A stretch of DNA of 64,000 nt from the IMG/VR virus record IMGVR_UViG_3300028833_000003; one strand, 5' to 3'. The position numbers were made by a program, and so were the translations under genes. Source of the DNA: a virus. This document shows positions 10,793 to 62,212 of this stretch, one piece after another. Under the pieces are notes generated by a model. That model was given only the letters and a program-made list of their open reading frames with translations. It was not told the origin of the DNA and searched no databases. Numbering within the stretch: the stretch's first letter is position 1; every line of letters starts with the position of its first letter.

Positions 10793-10809
10793 AATAATCC
10801 CTCCTTATA

Positions 10810-12795: not shown

Positions 12796-12821
12796 AGCTC
12801 CACTACTCCTTTCTCATAATT

Positions 12822-12849: not shown

Positions 12850-12884
12850 ATATCTATATACTTATCAAAAAATTATTAAATATA

Positions 12885-13100: not shown

Positions 13101-13118
13101 TTGAGTATCTCCTTTCCA

Positions 13119-21164: not shown

Positions 21165-21187
21165 ACTTGTACTCCTTTCCTCTAAAT

Positions 21188-21223
21188 ATCATAGCCATAA
21201 GAATGAATTCTTATGGCTATGAT
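21188..21223 (-). terminator. 17-bp perfect palindromic hairpin between fibre genes
   Basis: ATCATAGCCATAAGAAT-TC-ATTCTTATGGCTATGAT on the minus strand. The U-tract is weak (ATTT). It lies between TAA 21239 and the SD at about 21175. Confidence 0.5.
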
Positions 21224-38000: not shown

Positions 38001-38984
38001 CCAAGCATCAATATCTTTTACTGGATCAACTATATGCTCCTATCGTTCTATATGGCCAATATACTATACAACTGGCGCCCATTTTTCATTATCATTAATT
38101 AAAATTGATTTTAATTGTGCATAAGTCACAACTTTTGTAGCAGTTTTATCAATACTACCATCAGGTCGTATCGTATCATTTAATGGTTCCCATCCTAACC
38201 CAGCCTATTTATCAATAGTGCCGGTATAATCGGTATTTTTTCTGAACCATTTAATTTTATAACGCTAATTTAATAAATCTTTATATTGATTAATTAAATT
38301 ATATAAATCTTCCTACTACTAAATAGTTGTAATATCATCAAATAAATTCTCTGGATCATATAACATCTAATTAAAAATGTCTTTAAAAGCATTGCCATCC
38401 GCCCAATCTTCTTCAGTCATATCATCAAATAAAGTTAAACCATATTGATTATATAGGGCTTCCATACGATTATATAAATAAGTTAAATAATTCTTATTAA
38501 CTAAAATGCGCTCAGTGCGCTAAACTGCTTGAGCTTCTATTAATAATGCTTCTTCCATCATACGAGTTAGCTCTTGCAATTCATATGTTATTGCTTCTAA
38601 GCGAGCGATATAAGCTGCTAATTGTTCATTTGCATCTTCAATTTCTTCTTCTACATCTTGTCGTATTGCAGTAATGAAATCATTAAGCATTTGCGTACAA
38701 TTCTTTTTAAATTCTTCTTCTATATAAGTATATACATCTTTATCCTGTTGTTTAGCTTCTTCTTCTAAAACTTCACGCTCTTTGCCTTTTGTTCTATCAT
38801 AAATAACATATGCAGCATAACGAGCCGCTTGCTCTTTTGCTTCACGTATTGCACGATCGCGCGCCAAAGCCTAAGCAGACAATGACACTGACGAATAAAT
38901 AGTTTTTGCAGTTTTTTCAAAAGCGGTAGTATTAATACTTAAACCACCGCCACCAGCTTCTAACGGTACAGTAACAAAACTCAA
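32040..38984 (-). CDS. giant baseplate/tail-associated structural protein (about 2,314 codons)
   Basis: Start is TTG 38984 (4 nt after GGGGTGAG) or GTG 38993, which overlaps the upstream TGA. Sixteen listed ORF fragments (38520..38867 through 32040..32267) lie in one frame. The frame was checked free of TAA/TGA, with about 38 TAG. TAA at 32040. Motifs such as GIYGFKAGAQTYGLLTSGEAFFGAAGAGRIYIN recall Firmicutes phage minor structural/Tal-like proteins. Confidence 0.75.
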
Positions 38985-38989
38985 TAATC

Positions 38990-41179
38990 TCACCCCAATC
39001 TAGAGATGTCCCAAGACAACTTAATTTTTGCAGGTTGCCAAGCACTAAAAGTAAAATGTCGTTCTTCTTTTATTGGTTTTTGCATATACTCTGCTGCTTT
39101 TTGTCGTACTAATTCAGCAGCCAACTATTCTTGCATTTTACCATACTAATAAAAATCACGTGAGGTCGGTTTTTTTACTGTTGTCGTTGTAGTTTCATTC
39201 CCATCTGGATCAGTAGTAGTAACGGTAGTTGTGCTTTGTTGTTGCAATTTTTTTTCTTGTAATGCTATCTAATAATAGCAATATAATATCTATCGAATTA
39301 AAGTATTTACTAAAGAATCGCCTGTTCCAGTAATCATATAACCAGAAGCTACTGATGCGTGCTCTGCATCTTTGATAATTGATTTTCCTGGACATAAAGC
39401 ATATAATCTTAAAAAATGTAAATGCGCCGTACTATCAGGGTTAATTACCATATTAGGAGAAGTTTCATAAGAGCGCATTAAATAAGGATTTGCAATTTTA
39501 TTACAAAAAACATCATCAGTAGCAAACATGTCTTCTGTAAAAATAATTTCGTCTTCAAACTACATTAATTCATTAACAACCGCAGTGGATAAAATATCTA
39601 AATTATATTTTAATAATAAAGGATTATTAGTCTAATCAATCATAATTAACTGTTGTAATTTATCACTTAATTTTGAACGAGCTTCATCAATTTCTCTTTG
39701 TGTATATAATGTGATATTATTTAATACACTTAAATCAGCAATTGAGTCAATAGTTGCTAACTAATTTTCTAAGCTCGCTAATTTAGCATTTAAAGCATCA
39801 ACCGCAACAGTTATATTGTCTTGCTCTTCTGTTAATTCATTTTGTCTTGCGGTAATTTTTTCACGTTCTAACTAAATTGCTCTACGTTCATAAATAAGCC
39901 ATCTATTTACAACGTCAATAATAACTTTTTGTTTATTCGCGCGCGTAGCATCAAATGGAGTATTATATAACTCACGATAGCCTTCAATTAAAGCACTTAA
40001 ATCTTTTTCATCATCACGGCTATAAAATAATGCACGTTCAGTTGGCTATAATTCAATTAATGTTTGCGTTTCAGCATCCATCTCCCAAGAAGGGTAAATA
40101 TAAATACCGTTATTTACATCTGCTTTTACCCAAATAGCTTTTAAGTTACGAGTTTCAACTTGGTCTCTTAATTCTGCCCCACCTAAGCCATATTCAAGAG
40201 GTTCTTCAGTATATAAAATTAATTTTCCTTCTGCTAATTCCTAAACTGCAAAACCTAAACCTAAATATGGATTATGTAATGCTAATGTCTCTGGTACCGC
40301 AGCCTCGCAGCCTTCAATTAAGTCATCATAAGATTCATTACTTCTGACATATAAAATTGTTTCATCTACTCCAGGTAAAGCATATTTATATTCTACTGTC
40401 ATATTGCCTTCGGCAGACCATCCAGGAATTAAATTATTTGCTAAATCATAACTATCAAAATTCTAAAAAACAAATAATGTAATTTTACTAATTGAAATAT
40501 AGTCTTCAATATTTAATAATTTCTATTGAGAGTATGGAATAGTATAAGCATAACTATTACCAATAAATTCCGCATTTGTAAATTCGTCATCAAAAATAAT
40601 ATTATTTTCTTCATTAATAATGCCATATTCATTAGAACCGGTATCAATCAAATGAGCATCTAATTTACGCCATAAATCATCATAATGAATATCTAAACGA
40701 GTTAAAGCTAACTATTTATTATATTCATCATTGGCATATTGTTCTGTAATCGCCGCAACGTCAGCCGCATATTGTGCTTCTAATGCAGCTTTACGTTTAT
40801 TATATTCATCCGCAGTGTAAGTGCTTGTAGAAGATTCTTCATCAGTTGTTTTTTTAACGCCTTCGACCACAATTTTTACACCATAAGTACCTTTTAATCC
40901 AGGATATTGATTTAAGAATGATTCTACATCTATCTATAAACCAGCTTTAGTAAAACCTTCTATTGTTGCCGCGCCATTAGCAGGAACAAAAGAACATAAT
41001 TTAGTAAATAATTTACTGTAATGACCAGTTAAAACATCATAAAATTTTCTATTAGCCCAAAATTTATATGATACTTCTGGTCCGCCGCAAATAGGTGTTA
41101 TACGATATTCATTATAAATCTATTCTAAAGTACGTGTTTTTGCATATTTGGCTTTAAATTGTAGCCAAGCCTAAATGAT
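38990..41179 (-). CDS. hypothetical baseplate protein, up to 729 codons (start unresolved)
   Basis: It uses the same frame as the previous gene. That frame reopens below TAA 41180 and was checked free of TAA/TGA to TGA 38990, with about 15 TAG. It has no ATG near its 5' end. See the finding on 41098-41260. Confidence 0.6.
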
Positions 41180-41194
41180 ATTATCACGTACTTC

Positions 41195-42259
41195 ATCACT
41201 TACTCCTTCTGTTGTGACCATAGCAAGCATATCTGGATAAGCTAAGTCTCTCGTTAATTTTTTCCAATCAAACACTTTAGTATTTAATGATTCCCATTTA
41301 GAAGTTAAATTTGTAATAAAATTATTAATGCTAGCATACTAATGTGCAGCATTTTTAATTGTATGTAATGTGCCATTTTCTAAATAGTTATAATCAGCAT
41401 TATCATCTATATTCGTTGTATCAGAAAATTTTGCATATTCTTGTTGATAGTATGCGGATAATCTAGCATTATCTTCCTATAACCAAGCAATACATTGCTC
41501 GCGAGTGTTTTCTGTATAAGCCGGATCGGCTTCAATTGCACGTCCAACTTGCGCGACCAATATTTGTAATTCTGATAACGTATAATATGGTGCATGATTC
41601 TAACTCAAATTATTAACAGCATTAGTTAAAGCAGCATATTCGTGGTGTATGCAATCATAAATCGTATTCACATTATCAAAAGCGATAAAATTATTCATAC
41701 GCTATTGAATAATAGCAATTTTTTCTTCACGCATAGTTTCGATTATACGAGTACATTCATATGGAGTTATACCCCATACATATTCTTTATCTTGATTCTA
41801 CTCATAACGATGCTATTTTTTTAATTCAATATCTTCTTCTGCGTTGCCTAAAGCCGCTAAATCAGCAATATAAACAGGAACACAACCAGTTAATAAGCTA
41901 TATAAATCTTCAACCTCAAGCGCAGCAACCTAAACGAAATCATCAAAAGGCCATTTAAAATTATACGCCGCACTGCTACCTGTCATTAAACGACTTACAA
42001 TGCGTTTCTAATTGTCCCAATTATTCTATGGAACTAAAACTTGTACCTATTCGCCCGCGAAAAATGACTATTCTGAGTATGCTTCAAAACGAGTATTTTC
42101 ATATTCACAAGTGTAAATATTTTTATCCTCTTCCGAACGCGAAATGATAGTACAAGGCGAATAAGTTTTATCAAATTTTAAATCACTTAATGCTTTTTTA
42201 GTCAATAAATCAACTGCACTTAAAACGCCATTTGCAACACTATCATTAAAATTAGCCAT
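41195..42259 (-). CDS. hypothetical distal-tail/baseplate protein
   Basis: ATG at 42259 follows AAAAGGAG. The frame was checked open, with about 11 TAG, down to tandem TGA TGA at 41192-41197. Under code 11 only 63 codons are visible. Confidence 0.65.
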
Positions 42260-42301
42260 ATCTTCACACTCCTTTTACTCTATAACTCTATAACATAATG
42301 T

Positions 42302-42342: not shown

Positions 42343-45300
42343 TTATCTATAATTATTAATATATTGTGACGCACGATTATTAAGTTCATCAAACGCCGCA
42401 ATAATTTCGTTTCTATCAGTTGCATTCGGGAACTCAGCGGAAATATGAACATTCTATTCTAGCCCGCCTAGACCAGAGAAAATGCTAGCACCATTGGCTG
42501 AAACTCCACTACTTGACATAGCGGCAGCCAAACCACCAATAAATCCTAACAAATTTTGAACAGCAGATGTATCAATAGAATGTAACAGATCAATCGTATT
42601 TAGCAAATTAGGCGTGTCTGCCGCATTAAGCATAAGCTCTGGTTTATTTGGTGTGCCATCAACCCAAGCAGGTCCAGTATAATCAACCAAACCGCCAGAA
42701 GCATACCCACTTAATTTTGAATTATATCTCATTGCAGCAGCCTTTGCCGCTTCAATTTTTGATTGCCAATCACTTGAAACCTTTTTACTTTTAGTAGATG
42801 ATACTGTTGTACCGTTAGAACTAGCAACCGTACCATCAGTATAACCAACCATATTATTTTGTACTGGTACTAAACGATATTGAATAAAACCAGTAGCATT
42901 AGGTGTTGCAATGTCTCCTTCGGTACCACCAATCTGCCATAATAATTCTAAATTTTTTGTATTTGCTGCTTCAATAGTAGCAAAAATATCTGAAATAACT
43001 TGTTTTTGTCTATACCAAGCATCAGTCACTGCATCAACTTTAGCCGCTTCATCGCCCAATTCCTCATTTAAAAGACTGACTTGCGATGCAGCTAATGATG
43101 TAGTAGAACCAATGATTTCATCAAAATTGGTCATGTCTGCTAACCCAGTACGATAAAGAGATGTATCTAAAGCATCACTGAATTCTTTTAATTTAGGTAA
43201 TAACCAATCAATCTATTCTGCTAAACTCATTGCCATACTATCTTGTAATTCAATAGCAGCTTGAATAGTAGGATTGATACCTTCTGTTGGGTCTTTAAAA
43301 GCACTATAATAAGCATCGCTATATGCATCCATACAAGCTTCATTATTAGTGGTTAAATTAGCATATGCTTCTTTCATTTGATCGACAAAATATTTATCGT
43401 CTTGTTGAGCCATTTCATGTAATTCACGTAATTTTGCTGCTTTTTCTTCTTCATTCAATAAATCATCAAGAGCAATAGCTTTCGCCTATTCCACATACCA
43501 TTTGCGCTTTTCTAACATTTGTTCTTCTAATTCCCGCACTCTGTCTAATGATAATTCATTAATTTCAATTAATACATCATTATATTCCTGCGTTGCTTCA
43601 TCAACTTTTTCTTGGTCTGCAGTATATTGATACATATAATTACCATTTTCATCTCTTGTTAATCGTACAGTATCTTTTGCGTTCTATGCATCACGTAACG
43701 CTGTCTGTTTTTCTAATAGTTCATACTATTTTTGCATCATATCAACATCATATTGAGTTAATTGACCACTTTTAGCTTTTTGATTAATAACATTCTATAG
43801 CTCTTCATATTGATTCTTTAAAGCCTTATCCATAGTATCTGCCATCGCTTGTTCAATTTGTCTATTTAATTTATTAATATTATATAACTAATGAGCTGTA
43901 TTTAAATATCTATCTTGTACTTCAATGTCACGATCATATTTACCTTGTAAGTAATCTAATGTCGTTTCTCCCATCGCCAATGCTCTATCTAATTCAGTGC
44001 CCATTTCTTCAACATCGGCTTCCCAACGTTGTCTAGCTAAATCCGCCATACTTGTTAAATTTTCATAATAAGTATTTTGTGTATCTTTTAAGCGAGCTAA
44101 TAAACTATAATAATCTGCCTATTGCTGTGCGTCTAAATTTTCTAGACCATCAGCTTCAATAATTTTTTGATCAAATAATTCTTTTTGAGCTAAAACAGTT
44201 TCATATACATCTTTATAAATATTTGCCAATGCCTAAGTTTGATTATATTGTTCTGTCAAATTTGCTCTTGTTGTTGTAAATGTTTTATGAACTCCTATTA
44301 AATCACTAATATCTTTAATAGTCTATAAAGCAGTAATATTCTTATCTAATAAATCAGTATTTCTTGATAATTCGTCATCGTATTTAGACCACATATCTTC
44401 AAATAATTCCTATATTTCTTGACCTTTATCAAAGATGTCTGACATATCATCATTTAAAGCTTCCATAATATCCTATGAATGTTCTGCCATAGTTGCACCA
44501 TCAATTTCGCCTGCTTTAAATGCTTGCTATAATTCATTTAATTTAGTCATTTCTTCATTAAGTTTAATAAAACTCGCACCATCTAAATTTACTCCATCAC
44601 TACCAAATAGTGCCTCTGCTATTAAACTTGCTCTTGTGCTAAGATTAGTTAATATATCTTCGGTACGATCAAGTTGCCCTTCTAATGCATTTAATTCTAA
44701 ATCTGCTAATTCAATTTTCCATTCGTGCGCAGTTTCTACGGTTTCAGCAGTTTTTTCAGAAATTTCATGTTGCTATTCAAGAATTTTTTCTTGATATTCT
44801 TCTATTTGAGCTAATGAATCTTCATAATCTTCAATGACTTTCAACATACGTTGATAGGCATCATCAGGTCCTTCCATCCCGCTTTCTGCTTCATCATCTT
44901 TATGTTCATTATACCAATCTATTAATTTTTCCTAAAGAGCTTCCCAATTTTTAATAGTTCCATCTTCATCAAAATCAAGAGTAATACCAAGCTATGCTGC
45001 TAAGCCTTCAACATTTGATCTATCTTTGCTAGCATATGCCGCAGCTTCATTTAATCGTTCTTGATAATTGTCCATTTGTTTATTTAATTTTTCAATTTCT
45101 TCACGCATCAATTTAACTTTAGTTACACCAAATGCCATTTCTTCTTTTTTAGCGACCTAGCCTAATTTGGAATCATATCGTTTAATTGTTTCATCAACTT
45201 CATGGTAGCGTTTAAGATCGGCTTTGGATTTACCTTTCTTCTTCTTTTTGCCTCCACCGCCGCCGCCTCCGCCGCCACCACCAGGTGCAGAAGGTGCTCC

Positions 45301-48300
45301 GGCGCCAGGTCTTGCTCCAGTAGTACCAAAATCTGGTACGGCAAGACTAGTTGTACCTGAACCTTGTAATTGACCTTCAGCAGTAGCAGTCATAGAGCCG
45401 CCACCTGGCATAGTAACTGTCATTGTTGAAGATGCAGGTACATCAATTTCGTTTTCTCCTGTAACTGTCTTTAAACTAGGAGGAGGAGGAGCTTGTACAG
45501 TATATGTGATTGTGCCATCTTGATTTAATACTGCGGTTATAGCATCTGCATTTTGAATTAAGTATTCTACAGGTATCTATACAGCCTAGCCTGTTTGTTC
45601 GCTTAAAGTTGCACTTAACTAATCTGCTAAACCTTGCATATCAGTTCCCATCATTGCCGCAGCGCCTTGGGCATTTGTTGCTACATACTAAAAACCATCA
45701 CCAACTTGCTAAACTGCAAGTCCCATATCATTTAATACTTCATTTGCTTCATCTAAGTTATCAAACTAACTAACAAATTCTTCAGCAGTTTGTTGAGTTT
45801 TTTCTCCCCACTTTGAAGCTAGACCCATTGTATCCATTAACTATCGCATTTGTTTATTGGTTAAGTTTAAATCTTTTTGCAATTGTCGTAATGCTTTGCT
45901 ATCTTCTTTTCCAAGTTTTTCACCAAATTTTAACCCGTTACCAATTTTGTTAAATTCTGCTAACTGTTCTGTACAATCTTCTATAGATTGACCTGTTTCT
46001 TGGAACATCTCATCTAATTGTTTAGTTAAAATTTTTGCTTCTAACTATTCCATTGCTTCAACAGAACCATTAGCCCATTGTGAAATTAAATCTTTATTGT
46101 CTTTGATAAAATCCATGCCAACTTCTGCATCTTTAAAGAAATTATTAACTATATCTACTAAATCTTGATAAGCTGCCATTTGTTCTTTAATAGATTTTGT
46201 TTGATCATCAATAGTAGCTAAAGACCCATTTTCTTCTCTAGCTTTTTGTAATGCATCTAATGCTTCTGTCGCTTTATTATATTCAACAGCTGCTTCAGAC
46301 ATTAATAACTTGTCATCAGCTTCTAAATCTTGCCATTCAAGCATTACTCCTTCATAAGCTGCAATACTTTCAACATAATTTTCCATTTCTTGTGCTTCAA
46401 TACCAAGCTATTGCGCATAATTAGATAATAAATCTGTTAATGCTTGTACATCACCATGTAATGCCGCAGTCACTTTGTCTCCTGCAAATGCTTCATTAGC
46501 TAAATCTGTACCCAATTCTACTTCATCAGTATTAAATAAAATTGGATGTTCTAATAGATATTGATCTACAGCTTCTTGTTGTGCTTGCTGAATTGCAGCA
46601 GCTCTTTTATTCATATATGCAAGTTCACTTTTTGTAACTGCATTACCATTATCATCTAAAAGTAATAAATCAGGTTTATTCGGGTTACTTATTGGTTTAG
46701 GATTAGTTTTATCAAATTCTGCACCTGCTTGTCTTGCTGCATCTGCTTGTATTCTTGCGATTTGGTCCATCTAGGCCTAATTTACTGCAGTATAACCCTT
46801 TTCCTAAAATTGCTTTAATTCCTCTGCGCTATTAGCGTAATCCTAGTTTTTAACAGTAACTTTTCCAGTCTTTTGATCAATTTCAAAACTACTTGCAGTA
46901 CCATCTTGTAACATTTTCATTGCTGCCATAATCTGTGCCGCTGCAGCAGCCATAGCGGCGGCTAACTGCATGGTTGCACTTTCCAATTGCACTAAACCGA
47001 TAGAAGCAACTGTGGCATCTTCACCAACAATTCCCATGTCCTATAAAGTTTTTAGTACCGCTGCCTAATCTGCTTCTGACATACCTGCGAGAGTGCCTTT
47101 TTCAATCATTTGCTATTGAGCAGTCTATAATAATGTCATTTTTTGCTATTGACTATCTATATATTGCTCACCTTCTTGTCGAGCTTTGTCAGCCATATTA
47201 GTTCGTTTGGTTTCTACTTCTGTAAATGCTGCCGCTAAGATTTCAGCCAATTCAGAATCAGAATGTACATACATTGAGTCTTTTATCAAAGATAATACCG
47301 CCTCGAAATCCTCTTGTTTAAGTGTATAACCTTGCGCAGCTTCACTAACATGATAATTACCAGTCTAATCTGCAAAAACAAGACCATGACGTTCTAATCC
47401 TGCCAAAATTGCTATACTATTTGCGTCTCCGGCTTTAGCTTTATCATTATATTCCCCAATTAATTTAGGATTTAATGATTTTCCAATAACATCACGCAAT
47501 TCACCGGCTAAATATTTATCTACATATTTTCTAACATTTTCATTATATTGATCTTTTGTAGTATCTAAATATTCACCATTTTCACTATTTAAAAATCTTT
47601 GTCGCCCTGATTTATTATAAGTATCAAAATCAAATGGTCTATAATCAACTCTTGCATCAGGATTGTTTATATGTTCTTTAATTTCTTGTAATGTTTTACC
47701 TGCTTCTAATAATGTTTGCACATATGCTGCTAATTCATCAGGACTACCGAACATTGATTCTAAGATACTTTTTCCTTCTGCTAATCCTGCTCTCATATCA
47801 GCAATTGCTTGGAATGTTTGCTCCCATAATTCTAGTACTGCTTGTGCAGTAGCTTGTTCCTAAGCATATATCGCCTGTAAACCACTTGCCCATACATCTT
47901 TAATAGTATTCCATGCTTCTTCAACGGCAAATTCAATTTCCGTTCCGCTATGATTTAAAGCTTGTTGTACGGCAGCTATAAATTCTTCGTTATGATTATT
48001 AATTGCATCTGCTAAATCTGTTGCTCCAACTGTAGCAATTGCAGAATTAACTGCAGCGTCTATATAAGATTTTTGAGCATCAGACAATTTATCACTTTGA
48101 GCATATTCTTTATTACGATAATAATCTTTTTCACGTTCAGCAATTGCTTTTTGCATTTCTTCATTGAAGTTCTCATTCATTTTTACCAAAGCATCAGCCC
48201 GAGCTTGTGCAATATCTTTTGGACGTTTAGAATCTTTTTCTGCCTACGCTTTTAATGCTTTTAAAGCTGATTGATATTCATGTTCAAATTCTGCTGTCCA

Positions 48301-51300
48301 TTCTCTTCCAGGCATTTCTTGTGAAACCAATTGTTTTGCTTTTTGTTGCAATTTTTGTTCTTCATCTTTCCATTTAGCTTCTGCATCATCTTGAACTTTT
48401 TGTTCATAAGCCTTCCAAATTTCCTAATCAGTTAATTTATCTTTATTATCTGGATTGGCAATATAATTATCTCTAAAAGCTGCGTAATCATATAATGTAC
48501 TATACTTTTGATGATCCGCATCAGTACCACCTAACAAGCTATCTAAAACATCTGTAATAGATGTATCTTCAGAAATTTTTCCAATAGCATTTTGAATTTC
48601 ATCTAAAATACTTCGTGCAATTTTATCTCCTAAACCATCAACATTTGGCTCCCAACCAGCAATAGACTATGACAAACCAACTTGTAGACCTTGGATTAAG
48701 AATGGAGCCAAAGCCATAGTTAGTTTTGATGGTGATGCAATACCAAGAGCATGAGCAAATGCTGCAATAATTTCATTACCAATTGGCGCAAAATACGCTG
48801 CCCAATCTACATCTGTATTTTGTAATCCAACAATTAAGCCATCCATTAAATGCATAGCTAATGACGCCGTTGCGGAATCAGAAGATTGAGATGCTTCATC
48901 TAATGCTCTAAAATAATTATTTAAAACATCAGGTGCCAAATCTTTAAAATCATCTGGAGACATGGCTAAAATTTTATTATACATAAGTTGAGCCTTATAT
49001 TTTTGTTCATTTGACCAAGTATTATGGCTACCTTCAGCATTAAATTCGAACATAGCACTTTGTATATCTTGTATACTCTATAAATTATTATGTCGCTATC
49101 TAAAGTTTGTCACATGCTATTTTTCATTATTAGCAATAAATGGTATATCAATTCCACCTAAATAAGAATACATTTTATCAAGATCTTCTGCGCCCTTTTG
49201 CTATAAATTGCTTTTATCCATCAAAGCTTTAACTTTAACAAAATATTCTTGTCCTTGTAACTGTTGTTGAATAGTGTTATTTCCAAGACTCGCATCAGCT
49301 TTAACATGATATTCATTTGGTTTATCTTCTGCTCCATCAATTGCTCCCTATAATTCTGCAGCTAAAGTTACTTCTGTACCATTTGCTAATCTTACTTTAA
49401 TTTCTTTGCCTTTTCCATCTGCTCCTTGTAATATTTGAGAAATTTGCGATTCAATAATACCAACATCTGTTTGAATTTTTAGTTTTCGTGGTTGACCATT
49501 TTCATCTGTTTCCATTTCCCATGCGCTTATTTTAGATGCTAAATTAAATTCTTCGCCTTTATCATCAACGCAATTAATTTTAATATTATGACCAGTTGCA
49601 TCAGTTTCATAACTTTTAATCGTTGCCGCAAAATCTTCGTCATCTTTTCGAATTAAAATAGTTTTAGTGCCTGGAAGCATTAAAGCTGCGACCGTTACCG
49701 TAAAACCTAATGTATTACCTGCATTAATTGCAATTTTCTTTTCCTCTGGAACACTATCTAATAAAGTAGTATAAGTTACTTCAAAAGTGCCATTTTCGCC
49801 ATCAAACATAATAGTTTTATGGTCTGTAGTAATTGCTGTATTATATTTTGCAGTATAAGTACCAAATTCACCTTGGAAAGTAATAGTTTTATCTTCTCCT
49901 GCAATTGCTGTATCATATGTTGCAGTATAGGTACCAAATTCACCTTGGAAAGTAATAGTTTTATTTTCTGTAGCGGTTGCTTCTTTAACTGCAAAAGTAT
50001 AAGTGCCACCATCACCTAAAAACGTAATCGTTTTATTCTCATTCATTATAGCTTCTTTTACTGTATCTGTATAAGTTCCAAATTCGCCCTAAAATATAAT
50101 TGTTTTATTGTCATCTAAAGTTGCAGATGTATAAGCCGCCTAATAAGTTCCATCTTTAGCATAAAAAACAATATTCTTTTCTCCATCAATCTGTACAGCT
50201 TCTAATGAAGAAGTATATTCACTACCTGTTTCACCAACAAATGTAATTATTTTTGAACCAGGATGACTTTCAATAGCAGCAATTGTATCACTGTATTCTT
50301 TATCATCAACAGAAAAAGTTACTTGTCCATCAGGATGTAAATTAAAATTCTCAACTGCCTAAACTACTTCTTTACCATCAACGGTATAATAAACTTGACC
50401 ATCTTGATAAAGCCAAGTCTAAATTTCATCTTCATTTTCCATCTCGGCTTCAACTTCAATTACACTATGGTCAACTGGAGTTGTATCTAATTCTGTTACT
50501 AATCCAACATATTCTTGTTGCCGTTTTTCTAAAGTACTTAATTGCATTAATGCTGCTTCTGTTGCGGCTACCATGCCAGCCTTAATTTGCTCTTTATCTC
50601 CATCAGCATTTTGAATATCTTCAATAATTTCTTTAACTCTTTCAGCTGCAACACCAGCTCTAATTAAAGATTGTTCTAATTCACCAATTGAAGAAAAAGA
50701 TAAATTATCTAATGAAGTTAAATTTGATTGAATGAACTAAATCGCACTTTTAGCCGCGTTAATTTTTTCATCGTCCTAACTAGTTTGACTATCAACTCGA
50801 GACTATATTTGTTCCATACGCTAGTCATTTAATGCACGCTCTTGAGCTTCGATTTTTCTCTACTAAATTTGAACCTGAGTATCATCATATCCTTTTTCAT
50901 CGCGCATGTTCTATAATTCTTCTAGCTTTTGTTTCATTTGTTCCAATCTATATGTTTCTCGTTCTAGATCAGACATTCCTAGCCATTCCTCAAATGAGGG
51001 AGTATCAGCCTTATTTAAGCCCAATAATAATTGATTCATTGCTAATTCAGTATCTTTCCATTTTGTCGGGTCTAATTCTGCACCAGATAACCATTCTAAC
51101 TATTGCGATTTACCAGACGCAGTTTCAATAAATTTAGTTGCAGTTTGTAACGCCGTAGTAATATTAGTATATTCTGCTTCTTCATCACTTAAACTTGTTA
51201 ATAATCCTCTAAAATCACTATTGTTATTTACTGTACCTTTATAAGATATACCCCAATCATTCATATATGTACGTAAAATATCACTTGCAGAACCTGCAGT

Positions 51301-54300
51301 AGCATATTTGTCACCAAACATAGCAAGCATAGTATTACGTGTATCTTCGTTGTTTAATAATTTTCCATTTTCATCTATGTTTTCTGATAAAAAACGCTAA
51401 AAAGTACGCTAATGCTCCCATTGCTATTTAGCCTAATCAACATCTTCTACACCCATTCGTTCTTGCATAAAAGCATTCTATGAATCTGTAATAATAGTAT
51501 TTAAATCTACCATTCCATCTTCATATTGTTGCCACCAATTATCATAACCTGTGCTTATTTGCTCCATTAAAGTCGCCATTTGTGCGGCTTTTTCAGAAGA
51601 AGACATTTTATTCCATTCTTGAGTATTAAAAATTTCTCCTAATCCTAATAAATCACTTACTATTGGTAGCTATGCCGCAAAACTATCTATATCAAATTCA
51701 CCAGAATATCTATTACCCCATTGAGCCAATAAGCCTGTTGCAGTTTGTGCTTTTGCTTGTTGCTATAATAATTGAGGAACTCGTTTGTCCATTAAATCAC
51801 CATTATTATCTAAAAATGGTGCTATATTAGCCATATAAGACCAATCTTTATCAGTAAAACCCCACTGCTCTAATTTTTTCTACGCTTCTTCTTTTGTCAT
51901 TTTTTTATTACGAGTTGTCATTGCAGTTACAGCAGATTCTTTATTAGCAACCGTTGCATCTGCCGCAGCTATATCACTTTCTGATACACCGACTAATCCT
52001 CTGGCATAAGTAGTTACTAATTGACTAGCTTGTTTTTTAGCTGCTCGAGTAATAGCATCATTTTTATTACTATCTATGCCCCAGTCTGCTAATAAACCTT
52101 CAACTAAACTCTCCTATACATCAGAACTCCATCCTTCAACATTTTGTTGTTTTAGCCAATCCTAGCCTTTTAATTCTCTCATACTCTTAATAGCATTAAG
52201 ATATGGAGAAATCATTTCAGTGATCATGTAATCAATATCTTCAAATGATTGATCATGTACTAAAGCTTCTAACTATGATTTCATTCCAGGGTCTTCAATA
52301 GTTTTTGCTGCTTCTTTAATTGCTTGTAGCTAATTATAATAATGTAACAATGAATCTAAATCAGATTCAATAACTAAGTCATCGGCAGTTCGTGCCATCC
52401 CTGTTCCACCCGCGCGCGCACTACCGCCTAAGAATGATTGAATCAAATTATTTTCTTGATCGCCTGTTGCATTACCACTAAGCCAATAATCATATTTTCG
52501 ACTACCAGCATAATCAATATTAATACCATATTGATTAGCTAACATATCTCTTATATTTGCATTCTATAAACTTTTTAATAAACCAGATTGTTTCATATTA
52601 GTATTAAATGAACTTAATATGTCATTATAAACAACTCCGGTTTTATTCCCTTCATTATTATCTCTATATTTGTCTCCCATATTTTCTTTTGCTATTTTAG
52701 TAACCTAATTTTCTAAACCATGTTCTGCGCGTCTAACATCAGATTCTGCAGTTTCAATTTGTTGTTCACGTGCAGCCTCAATAGATTCTTGAATAGCTGC
52801 AGTTAATCCTTGATAATTACCAGTAAGTGCCATAACTGCAGCACCCTAAATGCCTAAACTAGATGCGATATCAGCTAAAGCACTACTATATTCTTGAACA
52901 GATAATGCACCTTCTGCAAACTATTTGTTTAATGAGTCAAAAGCATTACTATTAGTCATTAATTCTTGATTTGATTGTTGATGTTCTTCTAAAATTTTAT
53001 TTGTAGTTTCTGCCATTTTAACCATTTCTTGTTCACGTTTTTCTTGCTAATCTTTCATATACGTAAATACACCAGCAATTGCCATACCAGCCGCTTGAAT
53101 GCCTGCCATCAATGGTCCTTGTGTTGCAAATGTATTAAGTAATGAACCACCTGCACTAACAATAGAAGTTACACCTGCTAATGTATCACCACTTTCAAAT
53201 GACTTCATAATACCTTGCATAGAAGTAAAACCTTGAACTGCAGCCATGGCTCCTTCTGCAACTGTTGCCAAACCCTTAGACAATTTTTGAGCTGCAGCTT
53301 CACGAGCATTCAATGCTTGCTCTTCTTCATCTTCCATATCAAAGCCTGCAGTAATCTCTTCTTGGCCTACCTAACGACCATATTCCTAAGCTCTATGAGC
53401 AGAATCTTCACCAACAATGCTACGCATTTCCTGATAAGCTTCATCTAAGTCATCATCAATTTGATCACGTAAATGCTCTGCAATAACTCTTCCACGATCA
53501 GCTTTAGTAGCTTGATTTTGTTCATTAAAACCAGCACTTTCAAGCCAATCATTCATTTCATTTTCGTCTTGCGGTAAAAAATCACGTACTGCTTGAGCCA
53601 TTGGATTATTCTCATCCATCATAACAGACTCAAAACGCTCTGCAGCCGCTGTACTATCTGTGTCCTCATTAAAAATTTGATCTATCTATTGATTTACTGC
53701 ACCACGTAAAGCATTTCCTCTAGCTTCTTCTTGTACTCTATTACCTAATCCACGTATCGCTGTATTTTGTACATTCTTATCATCTGATTTAAAATCTGCT
53801 ACCATGTCATCAAGATCACTACCACTATAACCCTGATCAGCATAATAATTTAAAGCATTAATATAAGCATCATCACGTAATTTATCAGCAGTACCTGTAC
53901 CTTCTAATTCAACTAAAGAACCAATTGATAATTCTCTACGAGCTTCATCTGTAATATTGGCTAAATTAGTTTCATGACCTGCCATGGTTTGCTAACGCTA
54001 ATTTAAATAATCAATATGCTATTGTAAACGCGCAGCTTCTTGTCCACTCATATGCCCTTGTCGTAATAATAATTCTTGTTTAGCTATCGCACTTTCACTT
54101 CTTGCGTCTGCACTTAATAAACGCATTGTATTTGCAGTATTTGCACTTGTATCTGGTGTTAATTCACTTTCTCGTCTATCTAAAGCGCTATTATATTCCA
54201 TATCTGCCGATCTACGTAAAGTTGTTAGATTATCAAATAAATTTCGCTATTGAGTGCCTTGTGCAAATTTTTGAGCACCATACTAAGAAATTGCTTGCAT

Positions 54301-56001
54301 CCTTCCGCCATAATTATTTGAATTATTTTGCATATAAGCATTAAATTTTCTATAAGTAGGAATACCACCAATTGGATGCCCTTCTGAGCCTTTTGCTGCT
54401 TTCATGTTGCCCCATGCAGTCCGCAACGTACCACCTTTGCCAAAGAAATTTCCAAATGCCATGCTAATACCTGTTAATTTATCTAACATCTATGGTTTAA
54501 ATGCAGTCATCATCATCTAAGAAATTTTTGCTAATATACCAGGGATACCTCCAAGACCATTAACTAAACCTCTAACTGCAGATAACGCTGTTGCCAATGC
54601 ATTATTAAATCCAACAAGGAATTTATCATTAATTAAATCACCGAAAATAGCTTCTTTACTTGCTTGTACTCTTTGTTTAGATGCTTTAACAGAATCTTCA
54701 TAAATTTTCTGCATTTTTTCTAAGCTGCCAGCTGAATTTTGAGCATTTTGCAAATCTTTTTGATACGTATCCCAGTTTTCAAATAATGCCATTAATTGCG
54801 TATATTGACGTTTACCAGCAACAACCTGCGCGATAGCAGTTTTTTGCGCACTGCCCATGGTCTACCATTTATTACCAAGATCAGTAATAACATCGCCCAT
54901 ATCACGCATATTACCAGTAGCATCTAAAACCTATACACCAATAGAATTTAATGAGCTTGAAACTTTACCTAAATTAACACCGTCTTCTAATGTTTCACCT
55001 AATTTTAAGTCACCCATACGTGCTAAAATAGTTTTAAAAGATGTACCAATTGATTCAGCACTTTCACGAGTAACAGAAGATACAGTTGCAACAATAGAAG
55101 ACATTTGTTCCATACCGACACCAACAGTACTAGCAGTCGCGGCAACTTTCTATAAAGCTGTTGCAATTTCTTCCATGCTAGTAGCAGTAGTAGAACCTAA
55201 TTTTGCCATTACATCTACATAACCTTCAAGCTAATCACCGCCTGCTTTATAAGAATTCCAAACGGCGGTTAGCATTTCTGACATTTCCGCAGCATTAGCT
55301 TTGAATGCAGTATTTGCAGCCTTTAAAGTAATTTGTGCTTTCTTTTGTACATCTCTATCATTATCACCCTATTGATAATAAATTAATGCTGCATCAGCAT
55401 ATGCTTTTGTTGATGTACTTAAACTTTTTGCCATTACATTTGCTTCTTTTGCAAAATTGCTCATATCAGAAATAGATTTGCCAGTAACAACACGAATATT
55501 ATTTAATGAAGTATTTAAATTTTCAATATAGCTAACTGCTCCACTCATAGCAGACTATAAGCCATGAACCATTTGACTAGCTGCTTGCCATTTCACAGTA
55601 TTCATTAAAGTTGTGCCAAACTATGCAATAAGACCAGTCGCTTTTTGCGCGGGAATAGTTGCCTAAGTTAGAACAGAAGACAACTATGAAATTGCCTATT
55701 GTCCAGTTGTACCGGCGCGCTAGAAACTGGCAATTAACGTTTGAACATTTGTATTAGCACTCGCCAAGCTATTACTTAATGCACTAAAATTAATTTGCCC
55801 AGTATTAACATTAACTGCCTATTGTAATGCCTACTATAATTTTGCTGCTTGCTACGCGGCATCTGCCATATTTGTATCAATTTTTAAATTTAATCTACTG
55901 TTTTGCTGCAATCTTTGTAATGAAGAACTTAATTGTTCAACCTACCGCTATGCAGCACTGGCATCAGCCTAAATATTAATTTTATACTATACACCAGCCA
56001 C
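42343..56001 (-). CDS. tail tape measure protein, 4,551 codons
   Basis: GTG at 56001 lies 8 nt after AAAGGAG. I checked every codon of this frame and found no TAA/TGA from 56001 to 42346, and about 100 in-frame TAG. The N-terminal core reads SMEEIATALQKVAATASTVGVGMEQMSSIVATVSSVTRESAESIGTSFKTILARMGDLKLGE...GKRQYTQLMALFENW (TP901-type TMP core). The C-terminus reads YASGGLVDYTGPAWVDGTPNKPELMLNAADT (typical TMP end). The interior is long and coiled-coil-like. TAA at 42343 is followed by a terminator. Confidence 0.85.
45223..45282 (-). other. Gly11-Lys5-Gly-Lys-Ser-Lys low-complexity tract inside the TMP
   Basis: The + strand run cctccaccgccgccgcctccgccgccaccacc, preceded by ctt/ttt codons, encodes ...APGGGGGGGGGGGKKKKKGKSK... 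in the TMP frame. Confidence 0.8.
49741..50400 (-). repeat. about 9 tandem 24-codon repeats inside the TMP
   Basis: Consensus KTITFQGEFGTYTxxYxTAIxxxx. Two units (49819-49962) are near-identical at DNA level with a 72-nt period. Older units diverge upstream, and degenerate units continue below 49741. Confidence 0.8.
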
Positions 56002-56030
56002 GTTGCAAACTCCTTTCTCTCTTTATATAA

Positions 56031-56064
56031 TAAAAAAATCGTCTAATATTATGTATTAGACGAT
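56031..56064 (-). terminator. hairpin plus T-run between the chaperone-like gene and the tape measure gene
   Basis: On the minus strand: ATCGTCTAATA-CATAA-TATTAGACGAT (11 bp) followed by TTTTTTT, about 30 nt before the SD of the TMP gene. Confidence 0.6.
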
Positions 56065-56075: not shown

Positions 56076-56600
56076 TTAACCTATTTTATCTAAAATTTCT
56101 TTAACCGTAGTTAATTTTTCTGGGTCTTCAATTTTTTCAATTGTTTTATCAATATCATCTTTTGCAATCGCATAATCTGCATTAATCATATTAATCATAC
56201 CAGCTAATGAATTATTATAAGAAACAATATTATTCGCACATTTCTAAGCAGCGTCCCATAATAATTCATGTTCTCTTGTGGGAATTGCTTTAATTACACT
56301 ATCATAAACATGATTAAGTTCTAATGCATCAAATACTTTACTAATATTTTCTAATTGCTTATCAGTAATATTAATATTAGTATAATAACGAATTAATAAA
56401 ACTTTAAACCAAATTTCTAATCGCATTGGGTTATAAGCACCAGTAGAATCAATAGTATATGATAATAATTCACTAATCAACTGTGCTTTATCATCTACTG
56501 ATAAATACTAAATTACATTAATTTCTGTATCTCCTATTTTTATAATCACAGGTTCAACTGATTTAATGGGTGTTACTTTTGAAAAAGCAACTTTCGCCAT
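56076..56600 (-). CDS. tail assembly chaperone-like protein (XkdN-like, tentative)
   Basis: ATG at 56600 follows AAAGGAG. Two in-frame TAG codons (56508, 56244). TAA at 56076. It is small and acidic and sits directly upstream of the tape measure gene. Confidence 0.55.
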
Positions 56601-57976: not shown

Positions 57977-59059
57977 TTATTCACCAAAACGCTTTGGAGG
58001 TTCCTTACCAGAATCTTCATAAATGTCGCCTGGGAATTTAGTATCACCCTCAACTGCGCCACGAGTTGAACCATCATAAAGTGCAGTATCTTCAACAATC
58101 TGAAGAGCAGCAATTACTTTCTTGGTCTTATCAAACTTAGTATAGTCTGGGAAAGCATCCATTGTGAAAGTAAAGGTAGAAGGATCACCAGTAGGTGCCA
58201 TTGTGAAGGTAAAGTTAGACTGAACCTTGCAGTTAGGAATGATAAATTCAGCAGGATAGTCTTCACCAGTTGCTTCATCACGGAACAAAGTAGAAGCTTC
58301 AAGATAATAAGAACCACCGAACTTACCAGCTTCAATATCAATCTGCTTTACATACTGAGTGCTCTTTACATAATAGTCAATATAAAGAACAGAACCTGGA
58401 TCATCGCCCATGCCATTAACGTAGTCATATACTTCCTGTGGATTCTTAGCATCCTTATAAGCATCTACGTTTGCTTGGAACTCAGTGCCAATAGGAGCAT
58501 GAGCATCCATGATCTTACCAGCGACCAATAATTCATTATGAGCAGCATTATAAGCAGCAGCCCAATGAGCAAAGATTTCTTCAACGTTCATTTCCTTAGC
58601 AATATCATCACGTTGAATTTCCATAGGAATACGATTGGTATTAATAGAACCATCAGCATTCTTCAACATAATATACATGCTACCACCCTTGGCTGGCTCA
58701 TGAGCAAGAGTAATCTTACCTGCTTTAATCTGAACCTGCTCAGTAGTATGTACATAAATAGGATGATCTTCATCAGCATCCATGAAACCAGCACCAGAAA
58801 GAATTGAGAAGCTTTCTGGACTAATCAAAGCATCTTCCATTGTAAATGTTACAGTACGGTCGCCTTCCCAAGCTACCAAGCGAGGATTACCTTTACCGCC
58901 CTGAGCATAAACAGTTGTGCTCTGGCCTTCCAAAGAAGAAGTCTTCAATGTTTCAAAATATAACACAGGCATATCCTTGTCAAGATACAACTTACCGAAG
59001 AAACCTGCTGCCTTACGACGAAGTACAACATCGCAAATTTCGCGTACGCCAAATCTCAT
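57977..59059 (-). CDS. putative major tail (tube) protein
   Basis: ATG at 59059 follows AAGGAGGAAACGCAT; the ORF-track start at 59098 is upstream of the SD. 360 codons with no TAG. TAA is followed by a strong intrinsic terminator. It lies two genes (about 2 kb) upstream of the tape measure gene. Motifs such as PVLYFETLKTSSLEG...TVYAQGGKGNPRL recall siphophage tail tube proteins. Confidence 0.6.
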   Translation of the reverse strand: MRFGVREICDVVLRRKAAGFFGKLYLDKDMPVLYFETLKTSSLEGQSTTVYAQGGKGNPRLVAWEGDRTVTFTMEDALISPESFSILSGAGFMDADEDHPIYVHTTEQVQIKAGKITLAHEPAKGGSMYIMLKNADGSINTNRIPMEIQRDDIAKEMNVEEIFAHWAAAYNAAHNELLVAGKIMDAHAPIGTEFQANVDAYKDAKNPQEVYDYVNGMGDDPGSVLYIDYYVKSTQYVKQIDIEAGKFGGSYYLEASTLFRDEATGEDYPAEFIIPNCKVQSNFTFTMAPTGDPSTFTFTMDAFPDYTKFDKTKKVIAALQIVEDTALYDGSTRGAVEGDTKFPGDIYEDSGKEPPKRFGE

Positions 59060-61348: not shown

Positions 61349-61661
61349 CTAACTAATTCGCTAAATCAGTTAATAGTGAAATTGCACTAAAAACTGTTTT
61401 GCGATATATCATAAAATCGGCTTCGTCAAGCAGACCATACAATTCAGTAACAAATACTAAAAAGTCTAATTCACCGCCAAATATTTTGTCTAACCCACGA
61501 AGTTCAAGTAATACAGTTTTAATCTATCCTTGCCAATCCTCTTGATTTTCACGCATCGGCAATAATTTCCAAATCTGATTGACCAGACGACGCAAATCGG
61601 TCACTACAACACCTGGTTCAAATTTGAACTCAGTTGTTTCTGATTGCTTCCCACTTGCCAT
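61332..61661 (-). CDS. hypothetical head-completion protein (start uncertain)
   Basis: The frame is open to TAA at 61332 with two in-frame TAG, and overlaps the ATG of the next gene. Candidate starts are ATG 61661 or GTG about 61605, the latter after an AGGTG. Confidence 0.45.
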
Positions 61662-62211: not shown

Positions 62212-62212
62212 A

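What the first reader, a model, noticed from the sequence alone, without database searches (positions are those of the whole stretch)
42343..56001. A 4,551-codon tape measure protein in a single frame
One frame is open for 13,659 nt. It carries a canonical TP901-type TMP core near its N-terminus and a canonical TMP C-terminal motif (YASGGLVDYTGPAWVDGTPNKPE...) about 4,400 codons later. This argues for one protein rather than several. With the established rule of roughly 0.15 nm of tail per TMP residue, a fully extended protein of this size would imply a tail several hundred nm long, near the extreme for tailed phages. Embedded non-helical inserts would shorten that. Under the standard code this gene is invisible: it appears as 19 fragments, and most of it falls below ORF thresholds.
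Basis: partly seen in the sequence, partly recalled or inferred. Interest (0 to 1): 0.7.

Follow-up and report, generated by a model that had tools for sequence, protein, structure and literature searches.

The report
Giant amber-recoded phage tape measure gene
This is a real 4,552-residue phage tail "tape measure" gene, readable only if the TAG stop codon is translated as glutamine; it predicts a tail roughly 0.6-0.7 micrometres long, but it is one member of a family in which equally long or longer versions already sit, unnamed, in public data.

Summary
The open frame is real, and it lies on the minus strand: GTG at 56001 to TAA at 42345-42343, 4,552 aa. It has no internal TAA or TGA and 103 in-frame TAG. 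TAG read-through raises long-ORF coverage of the whole window from 40% to 98%, and TAG aligns with Gln in homologues (31-33% against a 7% background).

The protein is a TP901-type tape measure protein (TMP). TIGR01760 scores 121.8 bits (cut-off 28.8) and PF10145 gives E=1e-26. It sits in a structural module syntenic with Enterococcus phage VRE9_3/EF1 and phAss-1.

It is one gene. It is collinear end to end with two independent TAG-recoded IMG/VR contigs (TMP frames of 4,519 codons and 4,956 aa). Standard-code relatives carry the same N-core and C-module in one uninterrupted ORF (2,413-2,957 aa).

It is not a record. Unnamed homologues with the same N-core and C-module reach 4,268-5,731 aa, and Thermus phage P74-26 has an unrelated 5,006-aa TMP.

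Using two cultured siphophages (0.156-0.158 nm per residue), the predicted tail is about 610-720 nm.

Verdict: a new, long member of a known kind; moderate-to-low interest.

The parts
42343..56001 (-). Tape measure protein CDS: 4,552 aa plus a TAA stop, with 103 in-frame TAG read as Gln
   Evidence: frame and translation; TMP families; TAG=Gln
56010..56015 (-). Shine-Dalgarno AAGGAG, 8 nt upstream of the GTG start (56001-55999)
   Evidence: Sequence read. The homologues start at the same aligned position (MA..QY.I)
56032..56064 (-). Hairpin plus T-run (terminator-like) between the upstream chaperone-sized gene and the TMP start
   Evidence: Sequence read; its function is inferred
54523..55530 (-). 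TP901-family TMP core: TIGR01760 at aa 158-493, and PF10145 at aa 186-394 (54820-55446)
   Evidence: 121.8 bits against a cut-off of 28.8; 94.5 bits against 33.2
53056..53181 (-). Gly/Ala-rich hydrophobic segment (aa 941-982)
   Evidence: Seen in the sequence; similar segments are visible in the homologues; a membrane-insertion role is inferred only
45283..54441 (-). Variable 'ruler' middle (aa ~521-3573). It is about 3,050 aa here, against about 1,150-1,590 aa in VRE9_3 and phAss-1
   Evidence: BLASTP maps. The fragment aa 2715-2878 is predicted ~70% helical at low confidence
49213..50424 (-). Beta-rich insert (aa ~1860-2263). It includes seven tandem 24-aa units (aa 1917-2085, window 49747-50253), seen in the DNA as a 72-nt tandem repeat
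   Evidence: TRF, period 72; unit spacing; AlphaFold of aa 1972-2217: all strands, no helix, pLDDT 56
45196..45282 (-). Poly-Gly(11)/Lys-rich junction followed by KRYHEV (aa 3574-3602), which marks the start of the conserved C-module
   Evidence: The same G-run + K-rich + (E/D)RYHE junction lies 920-1,190 aa from the C-terminus in nine long homologues
42346..45246 (-). Conserved C-terminal module (aa 3586-4552), shared with all relatives down to VRE9_3 and phAss-1
42637..42705 (-). C-terminal motif YASGGLVDYTGPAWVDGTPNKPE (aa 4433-4455)
   Evidence: There are 1,703 library proteins at E<=1e-3, and the listed full-length hits carry the motif about 50-150 aa from their C-terminus
56076..56600 (-). 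174-aa gene directly upstream (phrog_30570); it occupies the position of a tail assembly chaperone
   Evidence: It has homologues upstream of the TMP in VRE9_3, UViG76, UViG14 and L013. The chaperone role is inferred from position only
57977..59059 (-). Tail tube (major tail) protein candidate, 360 aa, no TAG
   Evidence: phrog_2729. tblastn hits are annotated 'major tail protein' or 'tail tube protein' in Bacillus vB_BanS phages

Best explanation
Window 56001-42343 (minus strand) encodes one 4,552-residue tail tape measure protein. The phage is a large siphovirus-like virus, probably infecting Bacillota, that translates TAG as glutamine (genetic code 15).

The protein has four parts:
- a TP901-type N-terminal core (~520 aa);
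- a long, poorly conserved and at least partly helical middle (~3,050 aa) that carries a ~400-aa beta-repeat insert;
- a poly-Gly/Lys-rich junction;
- a conserved ~970-aa C-terminal module ending in the GGLVDYTGPAWVDGT motif.

By analogy with lambda gpH and the TP901-1 TMP, a few copies would be anchored at the tail-tip complex. The tube protein would polymerise around the extended TMP until it reaches the far end, so TMP length would set tail length. At 0.15-0.158 nm per residue this gives about 680-720 nm, or about 610-640 nm if the beta insert and the Gly/Pro-rich stretch add nothing.

The first TAG is codon 5 and there are 103 in all, so no product can be made until TAG is suppressed. That would tie expression to the late, recoded phase of infection.

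Shown here: the gene, its reading, its family and its single-ORF status. Inferred: the ruler function, the tail length, the morphology and the timing.
For: Frame and code:
- The frame has 0 internal TAA or TGA in 4,552 codons, against 153-552 in the other frames.
- TAG read-through raises coverage by ORFs of >=150 aa from 40% to 98%, all on one strand.
- Every complete gene in the window ends in TAA or TGA.
- Opposite the window's TAG codons, homologues have Gln in 33% (N-core) and 31% (C-module) of cells, against a 7% background. Opposite ordinary CAA/CAG Gln the figures are 39% and 27%, and some of the TAG columns are invariant Gln.
- The same trend holds for the relatives whose DNA was read and needs no TAG read-through (14.8% against 6.5%).
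- The related phAss-1 lineage has published tRNA-Sup(CTA)-Gln genes (PMC10607447).

Identity:
- TIGR01760 E=3e-35; PF10145 E=1e-26; TMP PHROGs 34405, 4211 and 28.
- The upstream PHROG order matches Enterococcus phage VRE9_3, where phrog_34405 is the annotated 2,673-aa TMP.
- The structural proteins are 71-90% identical to UViG76 and UViG14, and 37-50% to phAss-1 and VRE9_3.

One gene:
- It is collinear from N-terminus to C-terminus with UViG76 (4,519-codon frame, 30 TAG) and UViG14 (4,956 aa, 61 TAG), whose TAG counts differ threefold.
- Standard-code relatives have a single uninterrupted ORF with the same ends (2,413, 2,673, 2,868 and 2,957 aa).
- Eight library proteins of 4,268-5,731 aa share both ends.
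- There are no long internal DNA repeats and no compositional break.

Tail calibration and morphology:
- Perkons has a 2,439-aa TMP and a 380.6 nm tail (PMC13245101), giving 0.156 nm/aa.
- PMBT24 has a 1,508-aa TMP and a 238 nm tail (PMC11035940), giving 0.158 nm/aa.
- The tube-like protein is homologous to the major tail proteins of long-tailed siphoviruses.
Against: - No particle, proteome or read data are available, so the ruler function and tail length are extrapolated from other phages.
- No suppressor tRNA lies in the 64-kb window.
- Secondary structure was predicted for only two fragments, both at low confidence (pLDDT 52-56). One of them is all-beta, so the nm-per-residue rule may overestimate the tail.
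- No independent assembly of this exact phage could be retrieved.
- The genetic code used when the long library proteins were called is unknown. They support collinearity, but not independently the TAG=Gln assignment.
- No solved structure or Pfam domain covers aa 500-4552.
- The genes just downstream did not match known Dit/Tal families.
- Perkons shares only the TMP N-core with the window. PMBT24 was placed near phAss-1 only by PMC10607447 and was not compared with the window here.
Confidence: 0.88

Rival explanations
1. The frame codes for several products rather than one ruler. Some TAGs might still terminate through partial or context-dependent suppression, or the protein might be cleaved, for example at the poly-Gly/Lys junction. 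The virion would then contain shorter pieces and the tail would be shorter than 4,552 aa implies.
For: There are 103 TAGs, so any inefficiency in suppression would truncate most chains. A conserved low-complexity junction splits the protein into an ~3,570-aa part and an ~970-aa part in all long homologues. From general knowledge, not tested here: lambda gpH and T5 pb2 are proteolytically processed.
Against: Standard-code relatives encode the N-core and the C-module on one uninterrupted ORF. TAG columns behave like ordinary Gln columns. TAG counts differ threefold between collinear orthologues (30, 61 and 103), so no particular TAG is conserved as a stop. No internal RBS and start pattern was looked for or seen.
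Confidence: 0.08
2. Assembly artefact: two or more TMP genes or segments from related phages were joined, inflating the length.
For: The window is a metagenomic contig. The middle ~1,800 aa (aa ~520-2330) has no detectable similarity to the closest relatives. No second assembly of this phage was found.
Against: There is one N-core, one junction and one C-module, in the right order. Five collinear blocks match UViG76 at nearly the same positions (for example q2362-2469 against s2357-2468), and the total lengths are nearly equal, 4,552 against 4,519. There are no repeats >=30 nt above 80% identity, and GC and skew are uniform. The frame is kept over 13.6 kb. The cluster table records the window's own 226-aa fragment on 2 contigs, the longer 168,960 bp.
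Confidence: 0.03
3. It is a real single TMP, but much of it is not an extended ruler. Beta-repeat and other folded inserts would sit outside the length-determining path, so the tail is only ~350-500 nm, as in the shorter relatives.
For: The all-beta prediction for aa 1972-2217 and the seven 24-aa tandem units. P0007 has a similar mid-protein repeat block. The middle is the least conserved part. There is a Gly/Pro-rich stretch at aa 3500-3600 (33% G+P).
Against: The identified non-helical stretches total only ~500 of 4,552 aa. Two cultured siphophages, with TMPs of 1,508 and 2,439 aa, follow 0.156-0.158 nm/aa without correction. The sampled mid-block fragment is mostly helical. P74-26 shows that a 5,006-aa TMP does go with a ~1 um tail.
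Confidence: 0.15

Closest known systems
phAss-1 / proposed 'Phassvirus' TMPs (OQ749652, BK046881, BK025033; PMC10607447)
   Same: TAG-to-Gln recoded, gut-derived, large-genome siphovirus-like phages. The TMP has the same N-core and C-module (31% and 23% identity). The structural module is homologous (capsid-like 50%, tube-like 47%). The TMP is dense in TAG: 110 in a 3,155-codon frame.
   Different: The published TMPs are 3,149-3,209 aa, and this one is ~1,400 aa longer, all of it in the middle. There is no nucleotide-level match, so it is not the same genus. The suppressor tRNAs reported for phAss-1 are not present in this window.
Enterococcus phages EF1/EF5/VRE9_1-4/H1 TMP (phrog_34405, 2,673 aa)
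   Same: The same order of PHROG families from the capsid-like gene to the TMP. The same N-core and C-module.
   Different: They use the standard code, and the middle is ~1,150 aa against ~3,050 aa here. I found no EM for them; one table lists EF1 as 'Myoviridae' without data (PMC6435515).
Unnamed metagenomic homologues (IMGVR_UViG_3300028833_000076, IMGVR_UViG_3300031867_000014; library proteins P0138, P0018, P0034, P0008, P0007, P0116, P0013, P0085)
   Same: The same four-part architecture. N-core identity is 45-54%, and the poly-Gly/Lys + ERYHE junction and the C-terminal motif are shared. Lengths are 4,268-5,731 aa.
   Different: The middles are mostly unalignable with this one. The beta-repeat block, where present (P0007), uses a different unit. 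None is named or described in a source.
[quoted passage not shown]
   Same: The size class, and by inference the consequence for tail length.
   Different: There is no detectable sequence similarity. The host is a thermophilic Thermus, the code is standard, and the record notes a metallopeptidase domain.
Lambda gpH / TP901-1 TMP (the ruler paradigm)
   Same: The TP901-type core (TIGR01760) and the gene's position between the tube/chaperone genes and the distal tail genes.
   Different: Those proteins are about five times shorter (general knowledge). No frameshifted chaperone pair was identified upstream here.

Membership tests
TP901-family phage tail tape measure protein (TIGR01760 / PF10145) | Core domain scores above the curated cut-off | tested here: met
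   TIGR01760 scores 121.8 bits against 28.8, covering 14-340 of 349 profile positions. PF10145 scores 94.5 bits against 33.2.
TP901-family phage tail tape measure protein (TIGR01760 / PF10145) | Gene lies in the tail module, downstream of the tube and chaperone genes and upstream of the distal-tail genes | tested here: met
   The tube-like gene (phrog_2729, homologous to annotated major tail proteins) and a 174-aa gene lie upstream. The order matches VRE9_3. The large downstream proteins are homologous to those following the TMP in UViG76 and UViG14, but they have no Dit/Tal family match.
TP901-family phage tail tape measure protein (TIGR01760 / PF10145) | Largely alpha-helical, extended protein | tested here: inconclusive
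   Only two TAG-free fragments could be folded, both at low confidence. Fragment aa 2715-2878 is ~70% helix and fragment aa 1972-2217 is all beta.
TP901-family phage tail tape measure protein (TIGR01760 / PF10145) | Protein length determines tail length | not testable with these tools
   This needs EM of particles or deletion mutants. Two cultured siphophages give 0.156-0.158 nm/aa.
TP901-family phage tail tape measure protein (TIGR01760 / PF10145) | Upstream chaperone pair made by programmed frameshift (G/GT-like) | not tested
   A 174-aa gene (phrog_30570) sits in the chaperone position. No slippery site or overlapping frame was searched for.
Code-15 (TAG=Gln) phAss-1-like phage group | In-frame TAG in essential late genes, read as Gln | tested here: met
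Code-15 (TAG=Gln) phAss-1-like phage group | Phage-encoded suppressor tRNA(CTA) | tested here: inconclusive
   There is no tRNA in the 64-kb window. The source contig is probably ~169 kb, so the gene could lie elsewhere. Some group members lack it (PMC10607447).
Code-15 (TAG=Gln) phAss-1-like phage group | Homologous, syntenic structural module | tested here: met
   Nine window proteins hit phAss-1 at 22-50% identity.
Proposed genus Phassvirus | High nucleotide identity to phAss-1 (the three members share 80-86%) | tested here: not met
   The TMP gene has no megablast match in the phage collection, and protein identities are only 23-50%. It is a related lineage, not this genus.
Oshimavirus (P74-26-like) giant TMP | Sequence homology to gp95 | tested here: not met
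   No BLASTP hit at E<=0.01.

The most novel reading that the evidence does not exclude
One lineage of phages, probably infecting Bacillota, shares the same capsid, tube and TMP end-modules but has varied TMP length continuously from ~2,400 to ~5,700 residues. It did so by expanding a non-conserved middle between a fixed N-core and a fixed poly-Gly/Lys-bounded C-module. If the ruler rule holds throughout, the lineage contains mesophilic phages, many of them amber-recoded, with tails of 0.65-0.9 um. These would rival Thermus phage P74-26, and the window phage (~0.7 um) would be among the longest-tailed viruses known. The lineage would then be a natural series for testing how far the ruler mechanism scales, and what the beta-repeat inserts do inside or outside the tube lumen.
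Probability: 0.45. Interest if true: 0.55.

Novelty: new member of a known kind. Interest (0 to 1): 0.3.

Why it matters
The gene shows concretely how standard-code annotation hides the largest genes of recoded phages: here 104 fragments, and the deposited phAss-1 record is annotated the same way. It adds a 4,552-aa member to a lineage whose published TMPs stop at ~3,200 aa. The relatives gathered here show that tail-length potential in this lineage spans 2.4-fold with conserved end-modules and a conserved junction motif. If EM confirmed ~0.7 um tails, these would be the longest among mesophilic phages. This would inform models of tail assembly and of how long tails reach their hosts. As a single gene call, however, it is an expected kind of object.

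Tried and rejected
- Plus-strand reading of the stated coordinates: full of stops.
- TGA or TAA recoding of the window: only 43% and 64% ORF coverage, against 98% for TAG.
- Whole-protein search of the 5.8-billion protein database: timed out.
Only two short TAG-free fragments could therefore be folded.
- Search of the beta insert and of the whole protein against PDB sequences: no hit.
- Foldseek of the low-confidence beta-repeat model against BFVD: nothing at E<=0.001.
- BLASTP self-comparison for internal duplications that could explain the extra length: none at E<=1e-3.
- Chou-Fasman windows: too crude to separate the helical and beta parts.
- Looking for the same phage in JGI metagenomes and IMG/VR with the window-specific beta-repeat segment, and by exact look-up of its own fragment: nothing.
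- C-terminal query in IMG/VR: no hit.
- An exact DNA anchor returned only a 2.2 kb locus. The contig was extended instead with self-derived protein queries.
- Pfam and PHROG on the downstream giant proteins and the upstream module: almost no functional names.
- I first called the EF1/VRE9 phages 'Schiekvirus' and withdrew that, because Schiekvirus are myoviruses of the Herelleviridae.
- Literature search for EM of very long-tailed gut siphoviruses: nothing usable in the held library. My recollection that Hoyles et al. 2014 pictured such particles is unverified.
Full report
OBSERVATION. The finding gives no strand. On the plus strand the stated interval is full of stops. On the minus strand, the frame that starts at 56001 has 4,553 codons with no TGA, a single TAA (the last codon, 42345-42343) and 103 TAG. 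The other five frames of the same interval contain 153-552 TAA+TGA codons. An open run of 4,552 codons therefore cannot arise by chance: it has a probability of about e^-155 even at the lowest of those stop rates. Read through TAG, the frame extends upstream only to 56022. A GTG at 56001 is preceded by AAGGAG with an 8-nt spacer. Before that lies a hairpin with a T-run that follows the stop of the upstream gene. Homologues start at the same aligned position. The protein is 4,552 aa, not 4,551. Under the standard code it splits into 104 pieces, not 19. Of these, 31 are at least 60 codons long and 12 at least 100, and the latter cover 38% of the gene.

GENETIC CODE. The recoding applies to the whole window, not just this gene. 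ORFs of at least 150 aa cover 40% of the 64 kb under the standard code and 98% when TAG is read through, all on the minus strand. TGA or TAA read-through gives only 43% and 64%. All 22 complete genes end in TAA or TGA. I then looked at what homologues have opposite the window's TAG codons. Homologues at 45-54% identity have Gln in 33% (N-core) and 31% (C-module) of cells, against a 7% background. Opposite the window's ordinary CAA/CAG codons the figures are 39% and 27%. Several TAG columns are invariant Gln, including codon 5 in the conserved 'VQY'. The same enrichment, though weaker, is seen against three relatives whose DNA I read and which need no TAG read-through (14.8% against 6.5%). The related phAss-1 lineage has published suppressor tRNA(CTA)-Gln genes (PMC10607447). 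No tRNA lies in this window. However, the window's own 226-aa fragment is on record from a 168,960-bp contig, so most of the genome is unseen.

IDENTITY. NCBIfam TIGR01760 (tape_meas_TP901) matches aa 158-493 at 121.8 bits against a cut-off of 28.8. Pfam PF10145 matches aa 186-394 at E=1e-26. Six PHROG families, all annotated as tape measure, match the N-terminal ~500 aa. The nine upstream genes hit PHROGs 4088, 30998, 3853, 29637, 31155, 6123, 4051, 2729 and 30570. Enterococcus phage VRE9_3 has these families in the same order, followed by a 2,673-aa gene annotated as TMP (phrog_34405). The 360-aa phrog_2729 protein is homologous to proteins annotated 'major tail protein' or 'tail tube protein' in Bacillus vB_BanS phages. 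It is also homologous to structural proteins of the long-tailed Lactococcus 949 group. No sheath family was detected. The quoted C-terminal motif is at aa 4433-4455. A search with the TAG-free fragment that contains it found 1,703 proteins at E<=1e-3 among 1.84 billion cluster representatives. In the listed full-length hits, which run from under 1,000 to over 6,000 aa, the match lies about 50-150 aa from the C-terminus.

ONE GENE OR SEVERAL. The relatives show the opposite.
- Relatives read straight from DNA in the standard code have one uninterrupted ORF with the same N-core and C-module: VRE9_3 2,673 aa, MT835936 2,957 aa, an IMG/VR contig 2,868 aa and a Bacilli-bin contig 2,413 aa. Each has a single TAG, the stop.
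- TAG-recoded relatives have single read-through frames of 3,155 codons (phAss-1, 110 TAG), 3,749 (a 154.6-kb contig in a Lachnospiraceae bin, 83 TAG), 4,519 (IMGVR_UViG_3300028833_000076, 30 TAG) and 4,971 codons, or 4,956 aa from the ATG (IMGVR_UViG_3300031867_000014, 61 TAG).
- The window protein is collinear with the two long IMG/VR proteins in five blocks from N- to C-terminus, at nearly the same positions.
- Those two phages share the window's capsid-like and tube-like proteins at 71-90% identity.
- Eight unnamed library proteins of 4,268-5,731 aa from independent SRA assemblies share both ends as well.
- Within the gene there are no DNA repeats that could mislead an assembler, and composition is even.
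I could not retrieve a second assembly of this exact phage.

ANATOMY. Comparison defines four parts.
1. An N-core of about 520 aa.
2. A variable middle of about 3,050 aa, against about 1,150 aa in VRE9_3 and about 1,590 aa in phAss-1. No internal duplication is detectable in it by BLASTP.
3. A junction of eleven Gly, a Lys-rich run and KRYHEV (aa 3574-3602). Its counterpart (G-run, K-rich, (E/D)RYHE) lies 920-1,190 aa from the C-terminus in nine long homologues.
4. A C-module of about 970 aa.
The middle contains a Gly/Ala-rich hydrophobic segment (aa 941-982). It also contains a beta-rich insert (aa ~1860-2263) with seven tandem 24-aa units, visible in the DNA as a 72-nt tandem repeat. AlphaFold on the TAG-free fragment aa 1972-2217 gives only strands (pLDDT 56). 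On aa 2715-2878 it gives about 70% helix (pLDDT 52). Both runs used a single sequence and have low confidence. Neither the PDB nor BFVD gave a usable match.

MECHANISM AND TAIL LENGTH. By homology and position this is the tail length ruler. The established model for lambda gpH and the TP901-1 TMP is that the tube polymerises around an extended TMP anchored at the tip complex. I take this from general knowledge; it was not tested here. Two cultured siphophages give a per-residue figure:
- Perkons shares the TMP N-core (29%). It has 2,439 aa and a tail of 380.6 +/- 16 nm (PMC13245101), giving 0.156 nm/aa.
- Enterocloster phage PMBT24 (OQ326496) was placed near phAss-1 by PMC10607447 and was not compared with the window here. 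It has 1,508 aa and a tail of 238 +/- 6.5 nm (PMC11035940), giving 0.158 nm/aa.
Applied to 4,552 aa, this predicts 683-719 nm. If the ~500 residues of beta insert and Gly/Pro-rich linker add nothing, it predicts 608-640 nm. The first TAG is codon 5, so no product can be made without suppression. That fits the proposal that recoding restricts late-gene expression, which is discussed in PMC10607447; it was not tested here.

HOW UNUSUAL. The cultured record is Thermus phage P74-26. [quoted passage not shown] That protein shows no similarity to this one, so similar sizes arose independently. Within this protein's own family, lengths found here run 2,413, 2,439, 2,673, 2,868, 2,957, 3,149-3,209 (published), 3,749, 4,268, 4,419, 4,487, 4,496, 4,519, 4,552 (this window), 4,574, 4,757, 4,770, 4,956 and 5,731 aa. 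The window protein therefore lies in the upper part of a continuous range and is not an outlier. The very long members are unnamed in their sources, and I found no paper describing them. The published maximum for the recoded lineage is 3,209 aa.

HOST AND SOURCE. A genome-collection scan found relatives only in MAG bins of Bacillota: Lachnospiraceae, Erysipelotrichia and Bacilli. The cultured relatives infect Enterococcus, Enterocloster, Psychrobacillus, Bacillus and Lactococcus. Binning of phage contigs is weak evidence, so the host is given only as 'probably Bacillota'.

VERDICT. This is a new, long member of a known kind. It is useful as an example of what code-15-aware annotation recovers, and as a pointer to a lineage with a very wide range of TMP lengths. 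It is not a new type of system.

Noticed in passing
window 62879-63934 (-) and 57977-59059 (-): The capsid-like and tube-like genes contain no TAG at all. Every other structural gene has 0.15-3.4 TAG per 100 codons, and in some TAG makes up 50-75% of Gln codons. The two most abundant virion proteins avoid the recoded codon.
   Followed up: partly
window 56032-56064 (-): A terminator-like hairpin plus T-run sits between the chaperone-sized gene and the TMP start, immediately before the TMP ribosome-binding site. It might lower TMP expression relative to the tube genes.
   Followed up: no
window 2127-9968, 13119-21188, 32040-39020, 38990-42274 (all -): Four more very large TAG-read-through ORFs lie downstream of the TMP (up to 2,613, 2,689, 2,326 and 1,094 aa). 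They have almost no Pfam or PHROG matches. Parts of the 32040 and 38990 proteins are conserved after the TMP in UViG76 and UViG14. They are presumably distal tail, baseplate or fibre proteins.
   Followed up: partly
library proteins P0051, P0055, P0078, P0134: These are proteins of 5,198-6,239 aa in which the TMP core sits about 1,800-2,500 aa from the N-terminus (BLASTP; PF10145 at aa 2507-2714 of P0051). A long extension with no Pfam match comes before the core. That extension contains a DFDGD-like motif (TGDFDGDTV, GEDFDGDLN, DMDFDGDVV, ADEDGDTV), which resembles the catalytic NADFDGD motif of multisubunit RNA polymerases. They end in the same GGLVDYTGPAWVDGT motif. This could be a TMP fused to an ejected enzyme.
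   Followed up: partly
window 45196-45282 (-) and homologues: A poly-Gly run, a Lys-rich stretch and (E/D)RYHE form a junction conserved 920-1,190 aa from the C-terminus in nine long homologues. Its role (hinge, cleavage site or tip-complex boundary) is unknown.
   Followed up: partly
L001/L004 (phAss-1, OQ749652.1): The deposited GenBank record of phAss-1 is annotated under the standard code. Its 3,155-codon TMP frame (5246-14713) appears as more than twenty small 'hypothetical protein' CDSs, although the paper re-annotated it with table 15.
   Followed up: yes
L013 (CAVKBL010000002.1, Lachnospiraceae bin): A 154.6-kb contig binned as a bacterial MAG is TAG-recoded (ORF coverage 28% under the standard code against 97% with TAG read through). 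It carries a 3,749-codon TMP frame with 83 TAG, and is probably a complete phage genome mis-binned as host.
   Followed up: partly
window 61332-61865 and 61630-62316 (-): Two read-through ORFs overlap by about 235 nt in different frames, and several neighbouring genes overlap by 30-40 nt. Start sites were not refined, so I did not test whether any overlap reflects a programmed frameshift.
   Followed up: no
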